From a virus, in the IMG/VR virus record IMGVR_UViG_3300037193_001286, positions 1 through 64,000 of that record: DNA of 64,000 bases; one strand, 5' to 3'. Below are positions 25,592 to 43,565 of this stretch, one piece after another. Position 1 is the stretch's first letter. Each line of letters starts with the position of its first letter. Position numbers and translations under genes: made by a program. The notes below the pieces were generated by a model, which was not told where the DNA came from, made no database searches, and was given only the letters and a program-made list of their open reading frames with translations.

Positions 25592-27121
25592 TCAAGCCCC
25601 TATGCTGTCAACTGTCGTCGGAATGTCGATTGCCACCCATGCGCCATTCTGTCGGACATACATCTTTCCATCGCTGGGAGCGTCGCCAATCTTGCTGGCG
25701 ATCCCGGCGTCATACGTTGTTTTGAGGACCGTTTCGGCCCATGCCAAGCTTCGACGGGCGTAAGCTTTCCCGTCGTTTGGCGCTTCGCTGGTTTTGCTGG
25801 CAATGCCCGCGTCGTAGGTGGCCTTTGTTACGGTCGCAACCCACGCCGCGCCCTGCCGTCCATAGATATTCGTGTCGTTCGGCGCATCACCGATCTTGCT
25901 GGCGATACCCGCATCGTAAGTCGCCTTTGTGACAGTCGTAACCCATGCCCCGCCCTGACGCCCATAGATGTTTGTATCGTTGGGAGCGTCGCCGATTTTG
26001 CTCGCGATCCCAGCGTCATAGGTGGTCTTCAGGACCGTTTCGGCCCATGCAAGGCTGCGGCGCGCATAGGCTTTACCGTCGTTCGGTGCCTCGCTCGTCT
26101 TGCCGTTGATTGAGGTTTGCAGGGACGCGACGGCGGCATCGTGCGTCGCTTTCGTGACCGTCACGATCCACGCCGCGTTTTGCCGCGCATAGGGGTTACC
26201 ATCAGTTGGTGCGTCTTCCGGAATACCATCGGCACCTGCCGGGCCTTGCGGCCCCTCTGGCCCTTGTGGTCCGGTTAAGCCTTGTGGCCCTTCCGGTCCC
26301 GCTGGTCCGATTGGCCCAATTTCGCCCTGCGGTCCGGCCGGACCTTGCGGACCGATCAAGCCTTGCGGCCCCGGCTCACCCTGCGGTCCAGCCGGTCCAG
26401 TTAAACCTATCGGCCCTTGCGGCCCTTCTGGCCCCATGATGCTTCTGCCGGTATCGGTCCACTGCGTGCCGTTCCACTGCCAGAGTTGGCCATTCAAGCG
26501 ATTGAGCCATGTATCGCCGAACTCCATTCCGGTCTGGACGGGATCGCCCTCGCCGGAATACATCGAAACGCCGTCAACGCCAGCGGGACCAGCTGGCCCC
26601 TGCGGCCCGGCTGCACCTTCTGGTCCCGGTGGTCCCACTGGACCCTCCGGCCCAATCGGCCCGATTTCGCCCTGCGGCCCCTGCGGTCCCGGTTCACCCT
26701 GCGGCCCGGCTGGACCGGTTAAGCCTATCGGCCCTTGTGGCCCTTCCGGCCCAATTGGTCCAATCTCGCCCTGCGGTCCAGTTAATCCCTGCGGCCCTTG
26801 CGGCCCCTGCGGACCTTGAGGGCCTGGCGGACCGGGAACGCCGTCGCCACTGCCGCCGCCGCCACCACCGCCACTGCCGGTAACGTCGCTAAGTGGCACC
26901 CATTCGCCGTAACGGCGGGCGTAAGTTTCCCCACCATCCTCCGGCACGTCTTTTACCAGCGGAATTCGCTCACCACCGATCAGGAGCTGTTCCTGTTCTT
27001 CGTCGAAAACAAGTGTCTCGCTGCCCTTCAACCGACTGTCGCCTTCCCAGACGGCAATCTGATCCTTCTTACCTGATCCGATCAGGGCTCGTTGGTGAAG
27101 GGTAAGCGGTTGATCGTTCAT
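25592..27121 (-). CDS. collagen-like head fibre/decoration protein
   Basis: Two Gly-X-Y tracts plus repeated (D/E)APxDxxxYxRxxxxW units. Confidence 0.75.
25650..26220. repeat. intragenic tandem repeats of ~90 bp
   Basis: Repeated '[15 protein letters not shown]' and '[14 protein letters not shown]...[12 protein letters not shown]' units. Confidence 0.75.
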
Positions 27122-28572
27122 TCACCGCGTTCCTCGTGATAACGGTCGAAGAAGCCGCGCAAACTTACAGGCTGCCGACGCCCATCCTCGAATACGAAGA
27201 TGATACCGAAATTATCAATGTCCTCGATCACCTTTTCGATACCAGGACCAGTTGGCCCTGCCGGGCCGCGCGGTCCGCGTTCGCCCTGCTTGCCGCGACT
27301 GCCTGCCTTGGCCGCAAGCATCCAGCCATCACCGGGCAGCGGTCCGGGATTGTTCCGCCGTGCCATCCAAAGCGATCCGTCCATCGCTACGAAGTCTCGC
27401 GCCCGGTAGTCGGCATCGGGATCATAGAGGCCACGCGCTTCGCCGGGGTAGGTATCCTCACCCTTGAGAGCGACTGGTGCCCAATCCTCATGCGGCGGTC
27501 GCTTCGCCGTCAGGCAGCGCGCCGCCCATGTCGAGCCATCGCAGTGAACAAGCACGCCTTTCTCGTAAGCCCCGCCTTCCTCCCATACGAGAGGAGGATC
27601 GAAGGTGCCGCGTTCACCTTTTTCACCGCGTTCGCCCTTTGGGCCGGGTGGCCCTGCTTCGCCGCGCAAACCGCGAGGACCGGTTTCGCCTTGCGGTCCG
27701 GGATCGCCGCGTTCGCCGCGCTCACCCCGCTCGCCTTGCGGTCCTGGTTCGCCTCTCTCTCCTCTTTCACCGGCTGGACCGGTTTCGCCGCGCTCGCCTT
27801 TTTCACCGCGCTCGCCGCGTTCACCGGGATCGCCCTTTTCCCCCTTCTCACCGGGATCGCCACGTTCACCGGGTTCACCGCGCTCACCCTTTTCGCCTTG
27901 TGGACCTTGCTCGCCGGGCGGACCTTGCTCGCCGTCCAGCCCAGCCGGGCCGGGTTCACCTTGCGGCCCCTGTTCACCGGGATCACCTTTTTCACCTTTT
28001 TCGCCGGGTGGCCCCTGCTCGCCCTGCGGACCGGGTTCGCCATCCTTGCCAGCTGGACCAGCCTCACCGGGTTCACCCTTCTCACCCGGTTCACCTTGCA
28101 AGCCCCGCTCGCCCTGCGGACCGGGTGGTCCTGCTTCACCGGGATCACCGCGCTCGCCGGGTTCGCCGCGCTCGCCTTGTGGCCCTTGCTCGCCGCGTTC
28201 GCCAGCCGGACCTGTTTCGCCCGGATCGCCGCGCTCGCCCTTCTCACCCTGCTTGCCTCTTTCGAGCGCAGTCACGACTGCCAGTTTCTCGCGGATGTCG
28301 AGTGATAGTTCGCGGAAGTTTTGACGTTGTGTGTCGTGCTCACTTTCCATGCACACGACAACACGTTCCACCACGTCTGCGGTGATCTCCTCGATGAGGC
28401 CGTCAAGGCGCGTGCGCAGTTCGTCGGCGGTCCTGCCGGTTTCTTCTTCCCGCGCCATGATCTGATCAGCGATCTCGCGGACTTCATCGATACGGGCGTT
28501 CAGCTCCTTTTCGGCTTCACCTATTGCGAGGCCGCATGCCCTGAGAATGTGATCCTGGTCAAGCCGCATCAC
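27118..28572 (-). CDS. collagen-like protein with N-terminal coiled coil
   Basis: About 70 contiguous Gly-X-Y triplets and C-terminal carbohydrate-binding-like W/Y motifs. Start uncertain (28572 or 28602). Confidence 0.75.
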
Positions 28573-30064
28573 GCGCCTCTTTTCTCGCGCCACGGATGGC
28601 ATCCAGCGCGAACATGTCTTTCACCTGATCGGGGACGCCGTCCTTTTCTTCTTCCTCAGCTTCGGCCGCCGGCGGCGGCGCAGGCGGGGCTTCCGGAGCT
28701 TCCGGCGCTGGCGTTACCGGTTGCTCATTCTCTGTCTGCGCCCATGCCGACAGCGGAACGACTTGCTGCTGAACGCGCGGTTCTTTGCCATATCCGCCCG
28801 GAACGGCTGGCAGTTCCTCAGTGTTGCGGGCCTCGTCCGGTGCATAGATACCACCTTGCACGCCTCGCGCCAGTGCCTCGATCCGGTCCTTGTAAGCGAC
28901 GCGAAGAAGCGCGCGCGTATCAAATTCCACGTACTCATCAGGCCATCCCTTGAGGCCGAAGAACTGGTCGAACGCCACCTCGATGTGGTTGATCGCATAG
29001 CCGAGGCCACGAGAGAGCCAGAACTGCATCAGCGCTTCCGTCGAGGAAAACGTGCCCTTGTCGGCGAGACCGAGGATTGCTGGCGGGACGCCATAGACCA
29101 TGAAGATTTCGTCTTGCGTCAGCTTCAGCGCTTGGGCGACTTCCGAGTCCTTGGCGCTCATCGCCACGCCCTTGAACTTCATGCCGTTGGTGAGGATCGG
29201 CGGTCCCGCGTCGAGATTGTCGATGCCACGCCACGTCTCATTCAGCCGCGCGCGCAGTTCGGTGATTTGCTCCTTGGTGAAATTCAGATCGGTTTCGATC
29301 ACGCCGGGCGGGCGGTTCATGTTGCCGAAGAAGTTGATCAGCTGCTGGCCGATCAGGCGTTGCGCCATGATGGCGTCGGAAGCGTGCCGGAGCGGCGGCA
29401 CGCCCTTCAGCCAGTTGCCGCGTTCGGCTTCAAGCTTGACATGCAGCACGTCGCGCGCGGGCACGATCCGCTTCTTGTTCATGTGAGCGTAGCCGCCCAA
29501 TGAGACCGCCATCGGATCATAGCCAGCTGCGGAAACAGCGTCGGCCTCAAGGACGTTGTTGCCCGCCAGCTCATAGAAAATCTGCTGGTCATCGCCGACG
29601 ATTGCCTGTGATTGCCTTGGATCGAACGGATGCAGCGCGTCCACCTCGAAACGCGAATTGCGTGTGGCCAGGTGGTAGCTATTGCCGTCGATATAAAGGT
29701 TGCGGACGAGATTGAGGATGAAATCCGAACGCGACTGATAGTCGTTCGGATCTCTGAGGATCCGCGACAGCGCCGAATTGGTCACCCGCTCGCGCCCGCC
29801 GTCTCCGGTTGCGCGCCAGTGGTCACCGGGACACTGGGCTATCGTCTGGGCATAAGCTGAAACACATGCCTCGACCACTGCCGACACGCCGCCATTGCCG
29901 CGTATCGGATCGTAGTTCATTTGCCAGTAGTTCCAATGCTTACCCCATTCGTTCGGCAGAGCGCCGTCCGGGAAATGAACTACCCACGGTCCTTCGCGCG
30001 GCGCTCCCTCTTGTTTGGAAGCGCCTCGAAAAGGCTTGAGCAACGTGTCAAGCCAGCTTGCCAT
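28559..30064 (-). CDS. HK97-type portal protein
   Basis: 'LYIDGNSY', 'DVLHVK...GVPPL' and 'YGVPPAILG'. Confidence 0.92.
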
Positions 30065-40274: not shown

Positions 40275-40537
40275 AGTCTATCCGTGAAATCATCGCTTAC
40301 AACAAGGAGCGGATGAAGGACTGCGAGGATGAGATCGCTCGCATCCAGAAGCTGCGCGAGAGCAAGGCTGTCACGACCGATGATCACGACAAGTGGATCG
40401 AGGGCTGGCGCGAGACGCGGGCGTTCTGCCGCGACACTATCGCCTATCTGACGACTCTTGAGCACTTCCAGAAGGCGTTAAAGAAGAAGCCCCCAAGCGG
40501 CGGCAACCGTGGGGGCTTCAACACTACTCGTCAGTAG
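40271..40537 (+). CDS. hypothetical protein
   Basis: ATGA coupling. Confidence 0.45.
   Translation: MKSIREIIAYNKERMKDCEDEIARIQKLRESKAVTTDDHDKWIEGWRETRAFCRDTIAYLTTLEHFQKALKKKPPSGGNRGGFNTTRQ
40480..40518 (-). terminator. terminator downstream of the TROVE gene
   Basis: AAGCCCCCA...TGGGGGCTT hairpin with a T-rich tail on the minus strand. Confidence 0.55.
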
Positions 40538-41855
40538 CTTCCTGTAGCACCGGCTGGCCGATGCCTTCGGCAGCTGCGATGTATCGCAGGATGCCTTCAG
40601 AGAAGCCGTCGATGTGCGTCCAGCCATTGCCGTAACCGACGCCGTTCCGGTAGGAAGCGACGTTGATCATGTAGGCACGATCCGCACGCGGCGGCGGCAC
40701 AACGTCTGCCGTCTGCTCATCGGAGATGACGATCAGGCGGTCATGCCACTCACGGTTCGCACGCTCGATGGCCCTACCAAGATAGGTGCCCATGTGCATC
40801 TGCGAGCTGATCACCGCATCGACGCCAGCCATGCCGCGACGCGCCGGGACTTCCTTGATGTCATTCGAGAACGAAAACACCCGCAAGTCGCCGTTGATCA
40901 CCGACGCCAGAGCGGCGGCGGCATCCATCCGCATCATGTCCGAACGCTGCGATAGCCGCGTGTTCATCGAGCCGGAGACATCGACGAGGACAATCGTCTT
41001 GCCCGGCAGCTCGACGCCTTCAGACACCGCCTCGACCAGCGCCTGATCGATCACCCCTTCCAGCTGCGGCGCGGCGCGAGCGGCAGCAACGTAGCGGAAC
41101 GGGAAGACCATCTTGGCACCACGGCGAGCAAGGATCGCCTCCTTGACCAGATCGAGGTCGGCACCTGCCTCGACCATGTTGCGCAGGTTGCGCAACAGAG
41201 CGAGGTAGCCGATCTTCCCCTCCCGGATCAGGCGTTCGAACGTCTCCTTCTTGTCGGCACCCCCGGACAGCGCGACTTCCCACGTATCCGGCGTCACCAG
41301 CTCACGGTTGGCGAGCCGCTTGTAGAGCGATTCACGCTCCGGCGTCTTGCCCTTGGCGTGCGACAGGAACAGCACGTCGCGAAGGCGGACCATGCCGTCA
41401 CGGTCATACTTCGCCAGCGAATACTCGTTGAACTTGTCGAAGGCAGCAGCCAGCCCGCGCTTCATCTGGGCGGACAGCGGACGCTTGCCGCCACGCCAGT
41501 AGAGCGCAACCAGTTCTGCCAGCTCATCCGGGCGCGTGATCGTCGCGGTGATCGCCTCGGCAACGCCGGGACCGCCTCGACGGACCAGATCGAGAAGCAG
41601 CATCAGTGGTGCATGGCGAAGGCCGTGGACGGTACGCGCCTCGACAGCGAGCGCCGCAACGTCGTCCTTCTTCACCTTCTCTGCGGTCACCATGATGCGG
41701 TCGGCGATGGTCTCCCCGTCCTCGTAGAACTGGTTTTCCCATAGGAGACATGCGAGCACGGACCGGCGCAGCTGCAAGATCGGCGAAAGTCCGCCGACAG
41801 CGCGAGCGCCCTCGTGGGTGAACTCAGTCTTCCGGATTGGCTTGTTGGTGCGCAT
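40524..41855 (-). CDS. rsr: Ro60/Rsr TROVE-domain RNA-binding protein with vWA domain
   Basis: 'LRRSVLACLLWE..FYE', 'RPDEL', 'Y.LAKY', 'TWE', 'ALLRNLRN' and MIDAS 'DVSGSM'; AAAGGAA RBS before ATG 41855. Confidence 0.9.
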   Translation of the reverse strand: MRTNKPIRKTEFTHEGARAVGGLSPILQLRRSVLACLLWENQFYEDGETIADRIMVTAEKVKKDDVAALAVEARTVHGLRHAPLMLLLDLVRRGGPGVAEAITATITRPDELAELVALYWRGGKRPLSAQMKRGLAAAFDKFNEYSLAKYDRDGMVRLRDVLFLSHAKGKTPERESLYKRLANRELVTPDTWEVALSGGADKKETFERLIREGKIGYLALLRNLRNMVEAGADLDLVKEAILARRGAKMVFPFRYVAAARAAPQLEGVIDQALVEAVSEGVELPGKTIVLVDVSGSMNTRLSQRSDMMRMDAAAALASVINGDLRVFSFSNDIKEVPARRGMAGVDAVISSQMHMGTYLGRAIERANREWHDRLIVISDEQTADVVPPPRADRAYMINVASYRNGVGYGNGWTHIDGFSEGILRYIAAAEGIGQPVLQEATDE

Positions 41856-41919
41856 GATCGAAATTCCTTTGGTTGGCCTACGCCACCGTGGGTTTTCCAT
41901 CAGCGCCCAGGAGGAAGGT

Positions 41920-41988
41920 GGGCGGGAATAATCGCCAGACGGTCTGGACATCATTTCAAGTGAAGTAACCGTCAGCTTCGCCACGCCC
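41920..41988 (-). ncRNA. Y RNA-like unit (short); 4th of array in transcription order
   Basis: GGGCG-TGGCGAAG-CTGACGG-TTACTTC-insert-CCGTCTG-..ATTCC-CGCCC, with self-complementary ends. Confidence 0.75.
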
Positions 41989-41997
41989 GTTTTCCGG

Positions 41998-42104
41998 TCC
42001 AGCGGGAACTATCGATACGGTCACATGCCTGATTTGAACAGGCACCACCCGGCTTAAAGCCGATGGTTCATCCACGAAGTATCCGTATCTTACGCCACGC
42101 CGGA
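41998..42104 (-). ncRNA. Y RNA-like unit with hairpin and T-arm; 3rd of array
   Basis: Same scaffold (GATACGG/CCGTATC); insert has TCGG-CTTTAAG-CCGG and T-arm GCCTG-TTCAAAT-CAGGC. Confidence 0.78.
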
Positions 42105-42113
42105 GAAAACGAA

Positions 42114-42251
42114 GGGTCTGGCGGGAATTGACGAAATCGGGCTTTTTGCTGTTGCTCTACCGCTGAGCTAACCCCCTTTCGGGGGTACTGGATTCGAACC
42201 AATGACCTACAGTTTATGAGAAGTATCCGATCTCTTCGCCACGCCAGACCC
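42114..42251 (-). ncRNA. yrlA: YrlA-type Y RNA (circularly permuted tRNA mimic); 2nd of array
   Basis: 10-bp terminal stem GGGTCTGGCG/CGCCAGACCC; T-arm ATTGG-TTCGAAT-CCAGT; acceptor stem ACCCCC-GAAA-GGGGGT; D-arm GCTC-AGCGGTA-GAGC. Confidence 0.88.
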
Positions 42252-42273
42252 TATAAGAATCTCCATAGCGCCA

Positions 42274-42337
42274 ACGGGAATAAGCGGAAACGGTCTGGCT
42301 CTCTATTGACAAGAAGTAACCGTTACCTTCGCCACGT
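42274..42337 (-). ncRNA. Y RNA-like unit (short); 1st of array
   Basis: ACG-TGGCGAAG-GTAACGG-TTACTTC-19 nt insert-CCGTTTC-..ATTCC-CGT. Confidence 0.72.
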
Positions 42338-42347
42338 CAGCAATTAA

Positions 42348-42376
42348 GGAGTAAATGCAAATTTGTCGGATTGCAA
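42348..42376 (-). promoter_or_regulatory. promoter of the Y RNA-rsr operon with CAAATTTG operator
   Basis: TTGCAA-tccGACAAATTTGCAtt-TACTCC (17-bp spacer), ending about 10 nt before the first Y RNA. Confidence 0.55.
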
Positions 42377-42461
42377 GCTTGTAATTACCTAATAGGCATA
42401 TTATCACTATGTACAGAGACGGCCGCTGGGGCTGTCTTCGCTAATTTTGGAGAAACTCATC

Positions 42462-43565
42462 GTGTCGGACGTAATCATTTGCGGCTTCGCCGCCACCATC
42501 CAGTACATCAATCCCAAAAATGTTGAATTCGATATTCACCCGGCAGCCAAGCTGTTTCCAGTCCCGACTTCGGAGGATCGCGCGGCGCTCAAGGCGTCGC
42601 TCGTCGAGCACGGTTTCAGCTCGACCAATCCGATCATCGTCTATGCGGATCGCAATCAGATCGTCGATGGACGGACACGCTGGGCCATCGAAAAGGAGCT
42701 GAAGCGCGACTTGGAAATCCCGGTTGCGTTCGTCCAATTTCCCGATGACGAAGCTGCAAAGCGCTTCGCGCTGTCGCAGAACCTTGGCCGTCGCCACCTC
42801 ACCCGCGAGCAGCGCGACCAGATGATCAACGATCTCGTTTTCGACGGCTGGGCGGTCAAGGACTTGGCCGAGATGTTCGGCATCTCCGAATCGGCCGTCA
42901 CCAAGATCACGACGGAAACCCGCGATCTCATCGAAGAAGAACGCAACAAGAAGATCGTCGCCCTTGTCGACGAAGGTAAAACGCAGCGCGAAGTGGCTGA
43001 GGAAGTCGGCGTCAACGCGGCGACCGTGAACCGCGTGTTGCAGAAACGGACAAAATCCGAAATCGCAACGGACGGCAGCTGGCTGAACAAAAAGCCCGCC
43101 GTCGAGCCTGTCGTCAAGCCGACCGAAATCGATCCGCTGAAGATCACCGCCGTCCAAGCCAAGCAGGACGAGAAGATCGAGCGTCAGGTCGCCAAGAAGG
43201 TCGAACAGGCTCTCAAGGTCGAGCGCAAGAAGCTCGACAAGGAATTCGACGTGAAGGTCCGCGAGGCTGCCGACGCCTTCGTCAACCAGAACATCCTGCC
43301 GGTCTATGGCAAGCGCATCGAGCTGGCCGAACAGATCATCGCCTCGCACAAGGGCGTCATGACGAAGTCCCAGTTCCGCAAGGTGCTGTCTGTCCTTCAC
43401 CCGGATTCGACGCAGGATGAGGAACACAAGAAGAAGCTCGCTGCTGTCTTCGACATGTTCAAGTCGCTGGAACCGGTGCTGATCGAACCCAAGACGGCCG
43501 AAATCGAGCCGCTGGCGGCAACCGTCGAAGAATTCACCGCCAAGAAGACGCGGAAGGCTGCATGA
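42462..43565 (+). CDS. ParB/Srx N-terminal domain protein with HTH motifs
   Basis: 'HPAAKLFP...LKASL.EHG...PI......IVDGRTR...NLGRRHLT'; GGAGA RBS before GTG. Start uncertain. Confidence 0.7.
   Translation: MSDVIICGFAATIQYINPKNVEFDIHPAAKLFPVPTSEDRAALKASLVEHGFSSTNPIIVYADRNQIVDGRTRWAIEKELKRDLEIPVAFVQFPDDEAAKRFALSQNLGRRHLTREQRDQMINDLVFDGWAVKDLAEMFGISESAVTKITTETRDLIEEERNKKIVALVDEGKTQREVAEEVGVNAATVNRVLQKRTKSEIATDGSWLNKKPAVEPVVKPTEIDPLKITAVQAKQDEKIERQVAKKVEQALKVERKKLDKEFDVKVREAADAFVNQNILPVYGKRIELAEQIIASHKGVMTKSQFRKVLSVLHPDSTQDEEHKKKLAAVFDMFKSLEPVLIEPKTAEIEPLAATVEEFTAKKTRKAA

What the first reader, a model, noticed from the sequence alone, without database searches (positions are those of the whole stretch)
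41920..42337. Each Y RNA displays a different anticodon-loop-like element: a possible decoy panel against anticodon nucleases
Seen on the minus strand. Unit 42114-42251 is a tRNA opened at the anticodon: CTCATAA (CAU, Met/Ile2-type loop), 3' anticodon strand, AGGTC variable loop, T-arm, GAAA-capped acceptor stem, D-arm. Unit 41920-41988 has TCA-CTTGAAA-TGA (UGA, Ser-type loop in a mini-stem). Unit 42274-42337 has TTGTCAA (GUC, Asp-type). Unit 41998-42104 has TCGG-CTTTAAG-CCGG (UUA, ochre-type) followed by a T-arm. All four fit the YU-NNN-AN anticodon-loop pattern. Known: several anti-phage toxins (PrrC, VapC, PARIS AriB, retron PtuAB) cut specific tRNA anticodon loops. Inference: Ro60-protected RNAs may act as a varied set of decoys, or as sensors of tRNA cleavage. 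Heptamer matches are short and could arise by chance.
Basis: partly seen in the sequence, partly recalled or inferred. Interest (0 to 1): 0.85.

Follow-up and report, generated by a model that had tools for sequence, protein, structure and literature searches.

The report
Anticodon-arm mimics on phage Y RNAs
A soil phage carries four small partner RNAs (Y RNAs) for its Ro60-like protein; two of them bear a look-alike of a tRNA anticodon loop, and about 130 related loci show that this look-alike arm is a real, conserved and fast-changing feature of the family, which suggests that these RNAs are recognised by proteins that read or cut tRNA anticodons.

Summary
The stretch is an array of exactly four Y RNAs, with no terminator-like site before the rsr (Ro60) gene of a 73.9-kb temperate phage. 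In the window alone the four heptamers are not remarkable: the chance that all four inserts hold one is about 0.11. Folding supports only U4. U1's loop lies in another register, and U3's heptamer is closed into a long hairpin.

Comparison with 131 related loci changes the picture. Directly after the conserved GGNUACUUC box, many Y RNAs carry a 5-bp stem and a 7-nt loop reading Y-U-NNN-R-(A/C). This holds for 102 of 343 units, against 9.8 ± 3 in shuffles. The stem covaries and the triplet is hypervariable. A34 is avoided and G37 follows G36, as in real tRNAs.

U2's CUCAUAA aligns to that loop (custom model, 85 bits) but lacks the 5' stem strand. U4 is a mini version. U1 and U3 do not qualify.

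Chen et al. 2014 called this hairpin the "V" arm. Hughes et al. 2020 had already proposed YrlA as a competitive inhibitor of an anticodon nuclease. The decoy idea therefore gains a structural basis but stays untested. The scan has noted related tRNA/Y-RNA chimeras on other DNA.

The parts
42269..42338 (-). Y RNA U1 (short). It has the Ro-binding-type 5' motif GGCGAAG, a 7-bp upper stem (42320-42326 with 42287-42293), the box UUACUUC and a 19-nt insert.
   Evidence: Sequence; fold; the box plus lower-stem motif is found only four times in the whole 73.9-kb genome.
42299..42315 (-). U1 hairpin UUCUU-GUCAAUA-GAGAG. It has the shape of an anticodon arm (5 bp, 7-nt loop, U at loop position 2), but G32 and U37 break the anticodon-loop pattern.
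   Evidence: Minimum-energy and centroid fold; related units have 6-8-nt loops.
42114..42251 (-). Y RNA U2, a YrlA-type circularly permuted tRNA mimic. T arm 42187-42203; acceptor closed by GAAA 42171-42186; D arm 42154-42168; distal 5' strand of the anticodon-stem equivalent plus linker 42141-42152.
   Evidence: Rfam YrlA 41.3 bits, below the gathering score of 69; fold z=-5.29; custom model R1 85.2 bits, E=4e-20.
42204..42220 (-). U2 anticodon-loop homologue CUCAUAA (42214-42220), then the 3' stem strand ACUGU and the variable loop AGGUC (42204-42213). The local 5' stem strand is missing, shown as a 3-nt deletion against the family model.
   Evidence: The R1 alignment puts CUCAUAA in the anticodon-loop columns; the nearest relative L001 has UUCAUAA at the same offset.
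41999..42103 (-). Y RNA U3, T-arm-only class. Single-stranded motif GUGGAUGAA 42067-42075; 10-bp hairpin 42045-42066; T arm 42027-42043. It has no acceptor or D arm.
   Evidence: Fold; R1 33.3 bits through the Y stems and T arm; 29 relatives of this class.
41920..41988 (-). Y RNA U4 (short), with a mini anticodon-arm mimic UCA-CUUGAAA-UGA at 41951-41963 (loop 41954-41960).
   Evidence: The hairpin is in the minimum-energy fold. It is the only window unit that passes the strict hairpin-plus-pattern test. L001 has the same loop CUUGAAA on a different stem (CUU/AGG), and L002 and L004 keep YUUGAAA.
40524..41855 (-). rsr, the Ro60 homologue (TROVE + vWA, 443 aa), directly downstream of the array.
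   Evidence: Pfam TROVE 8.6e-11; PHROG 850 RNA-binding protein 2e-46; 92 phage records hold homologues.
42356..42377 (-). TTGCAA...TTTGCA element just upstream of U1, the probable promoter/operator of the array-rsr unit. This is inferred.
   Evidence: Similar TTGCAA-N-TTGCAA(C) elements lie 20-40 nt upstream of the first Y RNA in L001, L002, L003, L004, L022 and L046; the sigma-70 consensus scan found nothing.

Best explanation
SHOWN. The stretch is an array of four Y RNAs, the RNA partners of the phage's Ro60/Rsr protein. It comprises one YrlA-type tRNA mimic (U2), one T-arm-only Y RNA (U3) and two short ones (U1, U4).

In this Rsr clade (Alphaproteobacteria, Acidobacteriota and their phages), a hairpin follows the conserved GGNUACUUC box. 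This is the 'V' stem-loop of Chen et al. 2014. It is an anticodon-arm mimic with these features:
- a 5-bp stem whose first three 5' bases come from the box;
- a 7-nt loop reading Y32-U33-NNN-R37-(A/C)38;
- in tRNA-like units, a 5-nt AGGUC-type variable loop and the T arm after it.

The triplet changes about seven times faster than its flanks, yet it obeys real tRNA rules. A34 is avoided, G37 follows G36, and A37/A38 follow U36. In the window, U2 keeps the loop (CAU type) without its own stem, and U4 keeps a mini arm (UGA type). U1 keeps only the shape, and U3 has none.

INFERRED. The arm is an effector-recognition element. It gives a Ro60-bound, non-chargeable RNA the look of one particular tRNA species to proteins that read anticodon loops. 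The most likely use is as competitive bait for anticodon nucleases in the contest over cutting and repairing tRNAs.

My confidence is about 0.85 for the structural reading. It is about 0.45 that the arm is read by anticodon-loop-binding proteins, and about 0.25 for the nuclease-decoy version specifically.
For: Four units and no more in the genome. rsr lies directly downstream and no terminator-like site lies between.

Hairpin plus pattern occurs in 102 of 343 unique units, against 9.8 ± 3.0 in shuffles (maximum 18 in 200) and 58 of 1683 control ACTTC sites. Short units alone give 29 of 88, against 2.3 ± 1.6.

In 53 units chosen only by box-to-T-arm distance, the stem positions pair in 52, 52, 43, 47 and 44 of 53. 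Pair 31-39 switches between C-G (30), A-U (18), U-A (3) and G-C (1). The pair count is 94.9% paired, against 79.7% in shuffles and 34-60% when the partner is slid.

The full six-helix fold on 29 units has 21 of 32 pairs with compensatory changes and 0 of 500 shuffles as good.

All 151 hits of the custom model lie on the rsr strand. Loop length peaks at 7 nt (56 of 93), and U33 is present in 49 of 49.

Entropy at positions 34-36 is 1.6-2.0 bits. Close pairs differ at 0.41 per loop site against 0.057 per flank site.

A34 occurs in 3 of 102 loops. G36-G37 has odds ratio 13 (p=4e-7), or 9.5 (p=3e-4) on unique loops. Other G-G neighbour pairs show nothing, and real tRNAs from the same loci give 8.75.

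48 of 86 loops are identical to a real tRNA loop with that anticodon, against 39.1 ± 2.9 after permuting the flanks.

tRNA finders are fooled. ARAGORN units tRNAs, the Rfam tRNA model passes its threshold on 3, and GenBank phage records label them tRNA-Thr, tRNA-Ser and tRNA-Gln.

U2's CUCAUAA aligns to the loop columns. U4 and L001 share CUUGAAA on different stems.

A link to tRNA damage is in print (Hughes 2020), and rtcB follows rsr in L099.
Against: No expression, binding or cleavage datum exists for any of these RNAs. No RNA reads were recovered.

In the window itself the evidence is thin. U2 lacks the stem, so its 'loop' is one strand of a large internal loop. U4's stem is 3 bp, plus 2 more beyond a U·U mismatch. 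U1 and U3 fail.

Only about 30% of units carry the arm, and many arrays have none.

The statistics are not corrected for shared ancestry. The seed of model R1 was chosen using the pattern, so lean towards it.

The commonest triplets (Thr, Asn, His, Leu) do not obviously match the known targets of anticodon nucleases. That comparison rests on my own knowledge.

The same secondary structure can be read as a long variable arm, as in Chen 2014.
Confidence: 0.45

Rival explanations
1. The hairpin is an evolutionary leftover used only as scaffold. It is the anticodon arm of the tRNA (or tRNA dimer) from which YrlA-type Y RNAs arose, and it is kept as a stable U-turn hairpin (the 'V arm') for folding or nuclease resistance. 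The triplet then drifts freely and means nothing.
For: The dimeric-tRNA origin model is in print (Sim and Wolin 2018, as cited by Wang et al. 2018). The Y 5' strand plus the arm plus the T arm scores as a tRNA. The triplet is near maximum entropy. Only about 30% of units keep the arm, and window U2 has lost its stem strand. Chen 2014 suggests that the tRNA fold protects against nucleases.
Against: Free drift does not predict A34 avoidance, a G36-G37 coupling as strong as in real tRNAs, the U36-A37/A38 coupling, or the excess of loops identical to real ones. The 5' stem strand is fixed by the Y box, so whole arms are not being re-imported from tRNA genes; the loops change in place. The loop length stays at 7 nt and U33 is nearly invariant. 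CUUGAAA is kept while its stem is replaced.
Confidence: 0.3
2. The arm acts as a tether rather than a decoy. It recruits a tRNA enzyme to Ro60 or to its substrates, in the way Deinococcus Y RNA tethers PNPase. Candidates are an anticodon-loop modification enzyme, a synthetase anticodon-binding domain, or the RtcB ligase.
For: Tethering is the one demonstrated Y RNA mechanism (Chen 2013, as summarised). YrlA is a substrate of TruB and DusA. The loops carry the sequence determinants U36-A37 and G36-G37, and 24 of 102 have U33-G34-U35; that these are enzyme determinants is from my own knowledge. rtcB lies next to rsr in L099.
Against: No enzyme is known to need Ro60. A tether for one conserved enzyme would not need a hypervariable triplet. 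The window phage has no RNA ligase or tRNA enzyme among the roughly 25 ORFs scanned.
Confidence: 0.15
3. It is chance. The heptamers are coincidental matches to a loose pattern in short inserts.
For: The window-only test gives a joint probability of about 0.11. U1 and U3 fail on folding and on homologues.
Against: At family level the enrichment is about ten-fold, with covariation. U2's heptamer aligns to the family's loop columns, and U4's loop is conserved in four relatives.
Confidence: 0.05
4. The units are precursors of working tRNAs. The tRNA-like units would be cut in the acceptor loop, given CCA and charged, and would then serve as spare or nuclease-resistant tRNAs.
For: M. smegmatis YrlA is cut by RNase P and receives CCA. 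The units with the arm have all four tRNA arms.
Against: The acceptor stems are 5-6 bp closed by tetraloops with no encoded CCA. The Y stem interrupts the junction between positions 26 and 27. Short units have no tRNA body. Window U2 has no closed anticodon arm.
Confidence: 0.03

Closest known systems
YrlA (Rfam RF02553; Chen et al. 2014, PMC4201824; Wang et al. 2018, 10.1101/312249)
   Same: It lies next to rsr. It has the 5' GNCGAAG motif, a T arm, an acceptor closed by a loop and a D arm, in the order T-acceptor-D. Chen et al. also note a 'less-conserved fourth stem-loop upstream of T (V)' that starts at a conserved YUAY; this is the same hairpin and the same UUAC of the box.
   Different: The Rfam model does not reach its gathering score on U2 (41.3 against 69) or on any of 20 homologous loci. 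Salmonella YrlA 'lacks the anticodon loop'. Here the V hairpin has anticodon-arm geometry, tRNA-like 36-37 rules and a hypervariable triplet. I found none of this in the texts I could read.
Short Y RNAs (Salmonella YrlB; the multiple Y RNAs of M. smegmatis and D. radiodurans; Thermus phage phiLo Yrl1/Yrl2, PMC12135203)
   Same: Several Y RNAs per rsr locus share the Ro-binding stem and differ in the distal module. Phage-encoded examples are known.
   Different: About a third of the short units here carry a mini anticodon arm directly on the Ro-binding stem. This is not described for those RNAs.
D. radiodurans Yrn1 'anticodon arm' (Chen et al. 2014)
   Same: It is a Y RNA modelled with a 5-bp stem in the position of an anticodon arm.
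   Different: The Yrn1 loop has 6 nt, the orientation relative to the T and D arms is the other way round, and no variable triplet or tRNA-like loop rules were reported.
YrlA as a competitive inhibitor of an anticodon nuclease (hypothesis in Hughes et al. 2020, PMC7790460)
   Same: YrlA is not cut by the damage-induced nuclease and might compete with tRNAs for it.
   Different: It was proposed for a YrlA without any anticodon loop. The family here supplies the missing anticodon-like element, in many isoacceptor flavours.
Other tRNA mimics with anticodon-domain look-alikes (TYMV tRNA-like structure; tmRNA with SmpB)
   Same: They are non-tRNA molecules that imitate the anticodon domain as well as the elbow.
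   Different: Those have free CCA ends and are charged and used by the translation machinery. These RNAs have closed acceptor stems and a Ro60-binding stem.

Membership tests
Bacterial/phage Y RNA (Rsr partner) | Encoded next to rsr (TROVE + vWA), on the same strand | tested here: met
   rsr is at 40524-41855(-) and the array at 41920-42338(-). All 151 model hits in relatives lie on the rsr strand.
Bacterial/phage Y RNA (Rsr partner) | GNCGAAN0-1G motif near the 5' end (Chen 2014) | tested here: met
   GGCGAAG in U1, U2 and U4; GGCGUAAG (a variant) in U3 (definition).
Bacterial/phage Y RNA (Rsr partner) | The 5' and 3' ends pair into a bulged stem | tested here: met
   Predicted in all four units. 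In relatives the lower and upper stems are 92-94% paired, with 10 of 13 pairs compensatory.
Bacterial/phage Y RNA (Rsr partner) | Bound by Rsr in the cell | not testable with these tools
   This needs immunoprecipitation. No RNA reads were found.
YrlA (RF02553) | T arm, loop-closed acceptor stem and D arm, in that order, inside the Y stem | tested here: met
   U2. U1, U3 and U4 do not have this.
YrlA (RF02553) | Reaches the Rfam gathering score | tested here: not met
   41.3 bits against 69. No homologous locus out of 20 reaches it. This is therefore a divergent branch rather than a member by the curated cut-off.
tRNA | Open acceptor end and standard arm order | tested here: not met
   ARAGORN finds none in the window. 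The acceptor is closed by GAAA and the arm order is permuted.
Anticodon stem-loop mimic | 5-bp stem closing a 7-nt loop | tested here: inconclusive
   The family meets it. Window U4 has 3 bp, plus 2 more beyond a U·U mismatch. U1 has 5 bp and a 7-nt loop. U2 has no local stem. U3 does not meet it.
Anticodon stem-loop mimic | Loop reads Y32-U33-NNN-R37 | tested here: inconclusive
   U2 (CUCAUAA) and U4 (CUUGAAA) meet it. U1's folded loop GUCAAUA and U3 do not. In the family, 47 of 53 and 44 of 49 meet it.
Anticodon stem-loop mimic | tRNA-like rules inside the loop (A34 rare; G37 after G36; A37/A38 after U36) | tested here: met
   at family level and without phylogenetic correction.
Anticodon-nuclease decoy or sensor | Binds or is cut by an anticodon nuclease and changes tRNA cleavage or survival | not testable with these tools
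   This needs biochemical and genetic assays.

The most novel reading that the evidence does not exclude
Ro60 carries a set of isoacceptor-specific anticodon-arm baits. Each Y RNA would imitate the anticodon arm of one tRNA species closely enough to be recognised, and perhaps modified or cut, by proteins that read that anticodon. An rsr array would then be a tunable panel that soaks up or reports attacks by anticodon nucleases, and the triplets would evolve quickly to follow the nucleases met by the phage or cell.
Probability: 0.2. Interest if true: 0.85.

Novelty: new variant of a known kind. Interest (0 to 1): 0.6.

Why it matters
The effector of YrlA-type Y RNAs is still unknown ten years after their discovery. 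If the hairpin next to the Ro-binding stem is an authentic anticodon-arm mimic with a fast-changing triplet, the search narrows to proteins that read anticodon loops: nucleases, loop-modifying enzymes and synthetase domains. Simple experiments then become possible, such as triplet swaps, modification mapping and nuclease competition.

It would also tie Ro60/Y RNA particles of bacteria and phages directly to the contest over tRNA cleavage and repair, which so far rests on operon neighbourhood.

There is a practical point as well. tRNA finders and GenBank records label the 5' halves of these Y RNAs as tRNA genes in phage genomes.

Tried and rejected
- Rfam at gathering threshold over the window found nothing, and ARAGORN found none.
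- Megablast of the locus against phage records found no match.
- Expression: no RNA holder was listed. The two RNA runs I laid (about 2% of each was read) gave no reads, which is no test.
- Fixed-register pairing over all 334 units at once gave only a weak signal, because unit types are mixed. It was replaced by classes defined without reference to the hairpin.
- 'Panel' test: no array of 21 repeats a triplet, but about one repeat is expected by chance, so this is not evidence.
- Phage specificity was rejected. The arm is as frequent in chromosomal loci as in viral contigs.
- U3 as an ochre-type loop was rejected.
- U1 as an Asp-type loop was rejected.
- I considered testing whether the body of each tRNA-like unit matches the isoacceptor named by its triplet. 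I did not run it, because there were too few real tRNAs from matching hosts. One hint: L002 pairs a UGG loop with a GCGC-type D stem (that this stem is tRNA-Pro-like is from my own knowledge), but L005, with the same loop, has the common GCUC type.
- The reviews by Sim and Wolin (2018) and Sim et al. (2020) are not held, so my statement that the anticodon-like nature of the V hairpin is undescribed covers only the papers I could read.
- No supplements of Chen 2014 are held.
Full report
WHAT IS THERE. On the minus strand, 41920-42338 holds four units built on one plan. Each has a 5' strand GGCGUGGCG(A/U)AG, a 7-nt upper-stem strand, the box GG(A/U)UACUUC, a variable insert, the complementary upper-stem strand, and a 3' tail ending (A)UUCCCGCC. 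The box combined with the lower-stem motif occurs four times in the whole genome and nowhere else.

The next gene downstream, 40524-41855(-), is a Ro60/Rsr homologue. It matches Pfam TROVE plus vWA and PHROG 850 at 2e-46. No terminator-like site lies between the units and rsr.

The genome is a single 73,858-bp contig. It carries an integrase, portal, capsid/protease, terminase subunits and DNA methylases. It is held by soil metagenomes. It is therefore a temperate phage.

A ParB/HTH gene (42447-43565, +) is transcribed divergently from the array. The 5' motif is the GNCGAAN0-1G motif of bacterial Y RNAs (Chen et al. 2014). These are four Y RNAs, which I call U1 to U4 in transcription order.

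All four heptamers are at the stated places, and the anatomy of U2 is right. Rfam's YrlA model matches it at 41.3 bits (E=1.9e-7), below the curated 69. The fold shows the T arm, a GAAA-closed acceptor and the D arm, with z=-5.3.

As a window-only observation, however, the heptamers carry little weight. Shuffled inserts contain a YU-NNN-A-N heptamer with probability 0.35, 0.88, 0.75 and 0.47, so all four do by chance about one time in nine.

Folding supports only U4, where UCA-CUUGAAA-UGA is in the minimum-energy structure. U1 folds as UUCUU-GUCAAUA-GAGAG. That is a 5-bp stem and a 7-nt loop, but in a different register that breaks the pattern. U3's CUUUAAG pairs up into a triloop on a 10-bp hairpin. 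U2's heptamer has no stem of its own.

RELATIVES. I fetched 45 viral and 80 genomic loci that encode relatives of this Rsr, plus six phage records. A motif scan found 358 Y units on the rsr strand, against 13 on the other strand. Most loci have 2-5 units.

Reading them showed a recurrent structure directly after the box. It is UUCG(A/C), then a 7-nt loop, then (U/G)CG(A/G)G. In tRNA-like units a 5-nt AGGUC and the T arm follow.

The evidence that this structure is real:

- Offset. In 95 tRNA-like units the YU-NNN-R-N heptamer sits 17 nt (54 units) or 16 nt (25 units) before the T stem. At other offsets the count is 0-19.
- Enrichment. 102 of 343 unique units have a stem of at least 3 bp closing such a 7-nt loop at the box. 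Shuffles give 9.8 ± 3.0, and other ACTTC sites give 58 of 1683. Short units alone give 29 of 88, against 2.3 ± 1.6.
- Covariation. In 53 units picked only by box-to-T-stem distance, the five stem positions pair in 52, 52, 43, 47 and 44 of 53. Pair 31-39 switches between C-G, A-U, U-A and G-C. The pair-counting tool gives 94.9% paired, against 79.7% in shuffles (0 of 500 as high) and 34-60% when the partner is slid.
- Whole fold. A six-helix structure drawn by hand on 29 full units comprises the lower and upper Y stems, the anticodon-like arm, the T arm, the closed acceptor and the D arm. It is 94.9% paired, with compensatory changes at 21 of 32 pairs.
- Model search. A covariance model built from it (R1) finds 151 hits in 100 loci, all on the rsr strand. 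Where both stem strands align, the loop length peaks sharply at 7 nt (56 of 93). With a 7-nt loop and at least 4 bp, U33 is present in 49 of 49 and position 38 is A or C in 49 of 49. The seed was chosen using the pattern, so this last step leans towards it.

WHY IT LOOKS LIKE AN ANTICODON LOOP AND NOT JUST A HAIRPIN.

- Positions 34-36 are the most variable of the whole module, at 1.6-2.0 bits.
- Among pairs of units whose 38 flanking nucleotides differ at three positions or fewer, the loop differs at 0.41 per site against 0.057 per flank site.
- There are 33 different triplets.
- A at position 34 occurs in only 3 of 102 loops, although A is common at positions 35 and 36.
- G37 follows G36 with odds ratio 13 (p=4e-7), or 9.5 (p=3e-4) on the 62 distinct loops. 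No other neighbouring G-G association exists. The 116 genuine tRNAs found in the same loci show the same coupling (odds ratio 8.75).
- U36 goes with A37 and A38 in both sets.
- 48 of 86 loops are letter-for-letter a real tRNA loop with that anticodon, against 39.1 ± 2.9 when flanks and triplets are re-paired (p=0.003).
- Programs are fooled. ARAGORN units tRNAs. Rfam's tRNA model passes its threshold on three. GenBank records annotate the Y 5' strand plus arm plus T arm as tRNA-Thr (Xanthomonas phage 10KY502B), tRNA-Ser (Brevundimonas phage Gurke) and tRNA-Gln (CcrColossus).

BACK TO THE WINDOW.

- U2. R1 scores it at 85.2 bits (E=4e-20) and aligns CUCAUAA to the loop columns, with a 3-nt deletion of the stem's 5' strand. 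The closest relative (L001, Rsr 76% identical) has UUCAUAA at the same place and also lacks a local stem. U2's heptamer is therefore homologous to the family's anticodon-like loop, but it is displayed in a large internal loop.
- U4. It is the mini version. L001 keeps the same loop CUUGAAA on a different stem (CUU/AGG instead of UCA/UGA), and L002 and L004 keep YUUGAAA. This loop is conserved within the sub-clade rather than variable.
- U1. It belongs to a class whose loops vary in length from 6 to 8 nt and share a UGCAU-like core. It has the shape only.
- U3. It belongs to a T-arm-only class of 29 units. The hairpin before the T arm has a 4-nt loop in 19 of them, mostly GNRA or UUCG tetraloops. 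The bases after the box form a recurrent single-stranded GG-NN-GA(A/C) motif. Its heptamer is coincidental.

WHAT IS KNOWN. Chen et al. 2014 described YrlA RNAs in more than 250 bacteria and phages. [quoted passage not shown] That is this hairpin, and the YUAY is the UUAC of the box. They mention an 'anticodon arm' only for Deinococcus Yrn1, with a 6-nt loop.

Wang et al. 2018 state that Salmonella YrlA lacks the anticodon loop. They also cite the model that YrlA arose from a dimeric tRNA transcript. That model naturally explains an anticodon arm in front of the T arm.

Hughes et al. 2020 showed that tRNA fragments induce the rsr-yrlBA-rtcBA operon. They suggested that YrlA's tRNA-like domain may competitively inhibit the anticodon nuclease. 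Iyer et al. 2021 list phage TROVE proteins with a tRNA-like partner under RNA repair.

In the papers I could read I found no statement that the V hairpin has anticodon-loop geometry, tRNA-like loop rules or a hypervariable triplet. Two reviews were not available.

MECHANISM. Three things are shown: the architecture, its conservation, and its anticodon-like statistics.

The rest is inferred. The 5' stem strand is fixed by the Y box, so whole arms are not re-imported from tRNA genes. The loops change in place and still obey tRNA rules. That points to selection by something that reads real anticodon loops.

The acceptor is closed (5-6 bp plus a tetraloop, with no CCA), so the RNA cannot be charged. 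What remains is binding.

I therefore favour a bait or recognition role for anticodon-loop-reading proteins. Competition with anticodon nucleases is the leading version, and tethering of a loop-modifying or repair enzyme is the second.

The feature is equally common in chromosomal and viral loci (30% of units in each). It occurs next to rtcB in a Bradyrhizobium locus. It is thus a property of the Rsr system and not a phage invention.

The main rival is a leftover arm kept for folding only. That explains the hypervariable triplet but not the A34 avoidance or the 36-37/38 couplings. None of the statistics is corrected for shared ancestry, and no expression or binding datum exists.

VERDICT. The finding is a new variant of a known kind, namely Y RNAs whose 'V' stem-loop is an anticodon-arm mimic. 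Earlier notes of this scan describe related tRNA/Y-RNA chimeras on other DNA. Interest is moderate to high, because it makes the long-open question of the YrlA effector directly testable.

Noticed in passing
L126:1325-1392; L127:1299-1373; L128:664-731: GenBank records of Xanthomonas phage 10KY502B, Brevundimonas phage Gurke and Caulobacter phage CcrColossus annotate 'tRNA-Thr', 'tRNA-Ser' and 'tRNA-Gln' directly upstream of rsr. Each of these is the 5' strand of a Y RNA plus its anticodon-like arm and T arm, not a tRNA gene.
   Followed up: yes
L003:2192-2300: One Y unit holds a tRNA-like body in natural order (hairpin, D arm, anticodon arm with UAC, AGGUC, T arm) between the Y stem strands. 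The Y stem therefore takes the place of the acceptor stem. This is a third topology, beside the permuted YrlA type.
   Followed up: partly
window 42356-42377 (-); L001, L002, L003, L004, L022, L046 about 20-40 nt upstream of the first Y RNA: A TTGCAA-N-TTGCAA(C)-like near-palindrome precedes the first Y RNA in several relatives. It is probably a shared promoter/operator. The sigma-70 consensus scan found nothing there.
   Followed up: partly
window 42447-43565 (+): A 372-aa ParB-like/HTH protein is transcribed divergently from the Y RNA array. L001 has a similar HTH gene in the same position, and the CcrColossus and Gurke records have a 'putative HTH domain DNA-binding protein' upstream of their arrays. 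It is a candidate regulator of the operon.
   Followed up: partly
window 42067-42075 (-) and 29 T-arm-only units in relatives: The T-arm-only Y RNA class shares a single-stranded GG-NN-GA(A/C) motif directly after the ACUUC box. A stable 4-nt-loop hairpin (mostly GNRA or UUCG) then abuts the T arm. Some short units carry a similar UGGUGAAA.
   Followed up: partly
L128:600-1500: CcrColossus has at least five Y units before rsr. Two have anticodon-like arms (CUG and GUU). Two have bodies that look like class II tRNAs, with a long extra arm and a GUGGCGGA-type D arm.
   Followed up: no
L095:2183-2457; L099:2178-2457: Some arrays hold both an arm-bearing tRNA-like Y RNA and, next to it, an arm-less one in which the box runs almost directly into the T arm (the classical YrlA layout).
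   Followed up: no
window 40912-41871: In one soil run, a second lower-depth contig joins 40912 to 41871 with 790 other letters in between. This may be a related strain with a different rsr 5' part. Only about 21 nt match on each side, so it is weak.
   Followed up: no
window 25592-28602 (-): Two adjacent large genes carry collagen triple-helix repeats, and one also has a fibritin C-terminal domain. They are probably tail fibre proteins of the phage.
   Followed up: no
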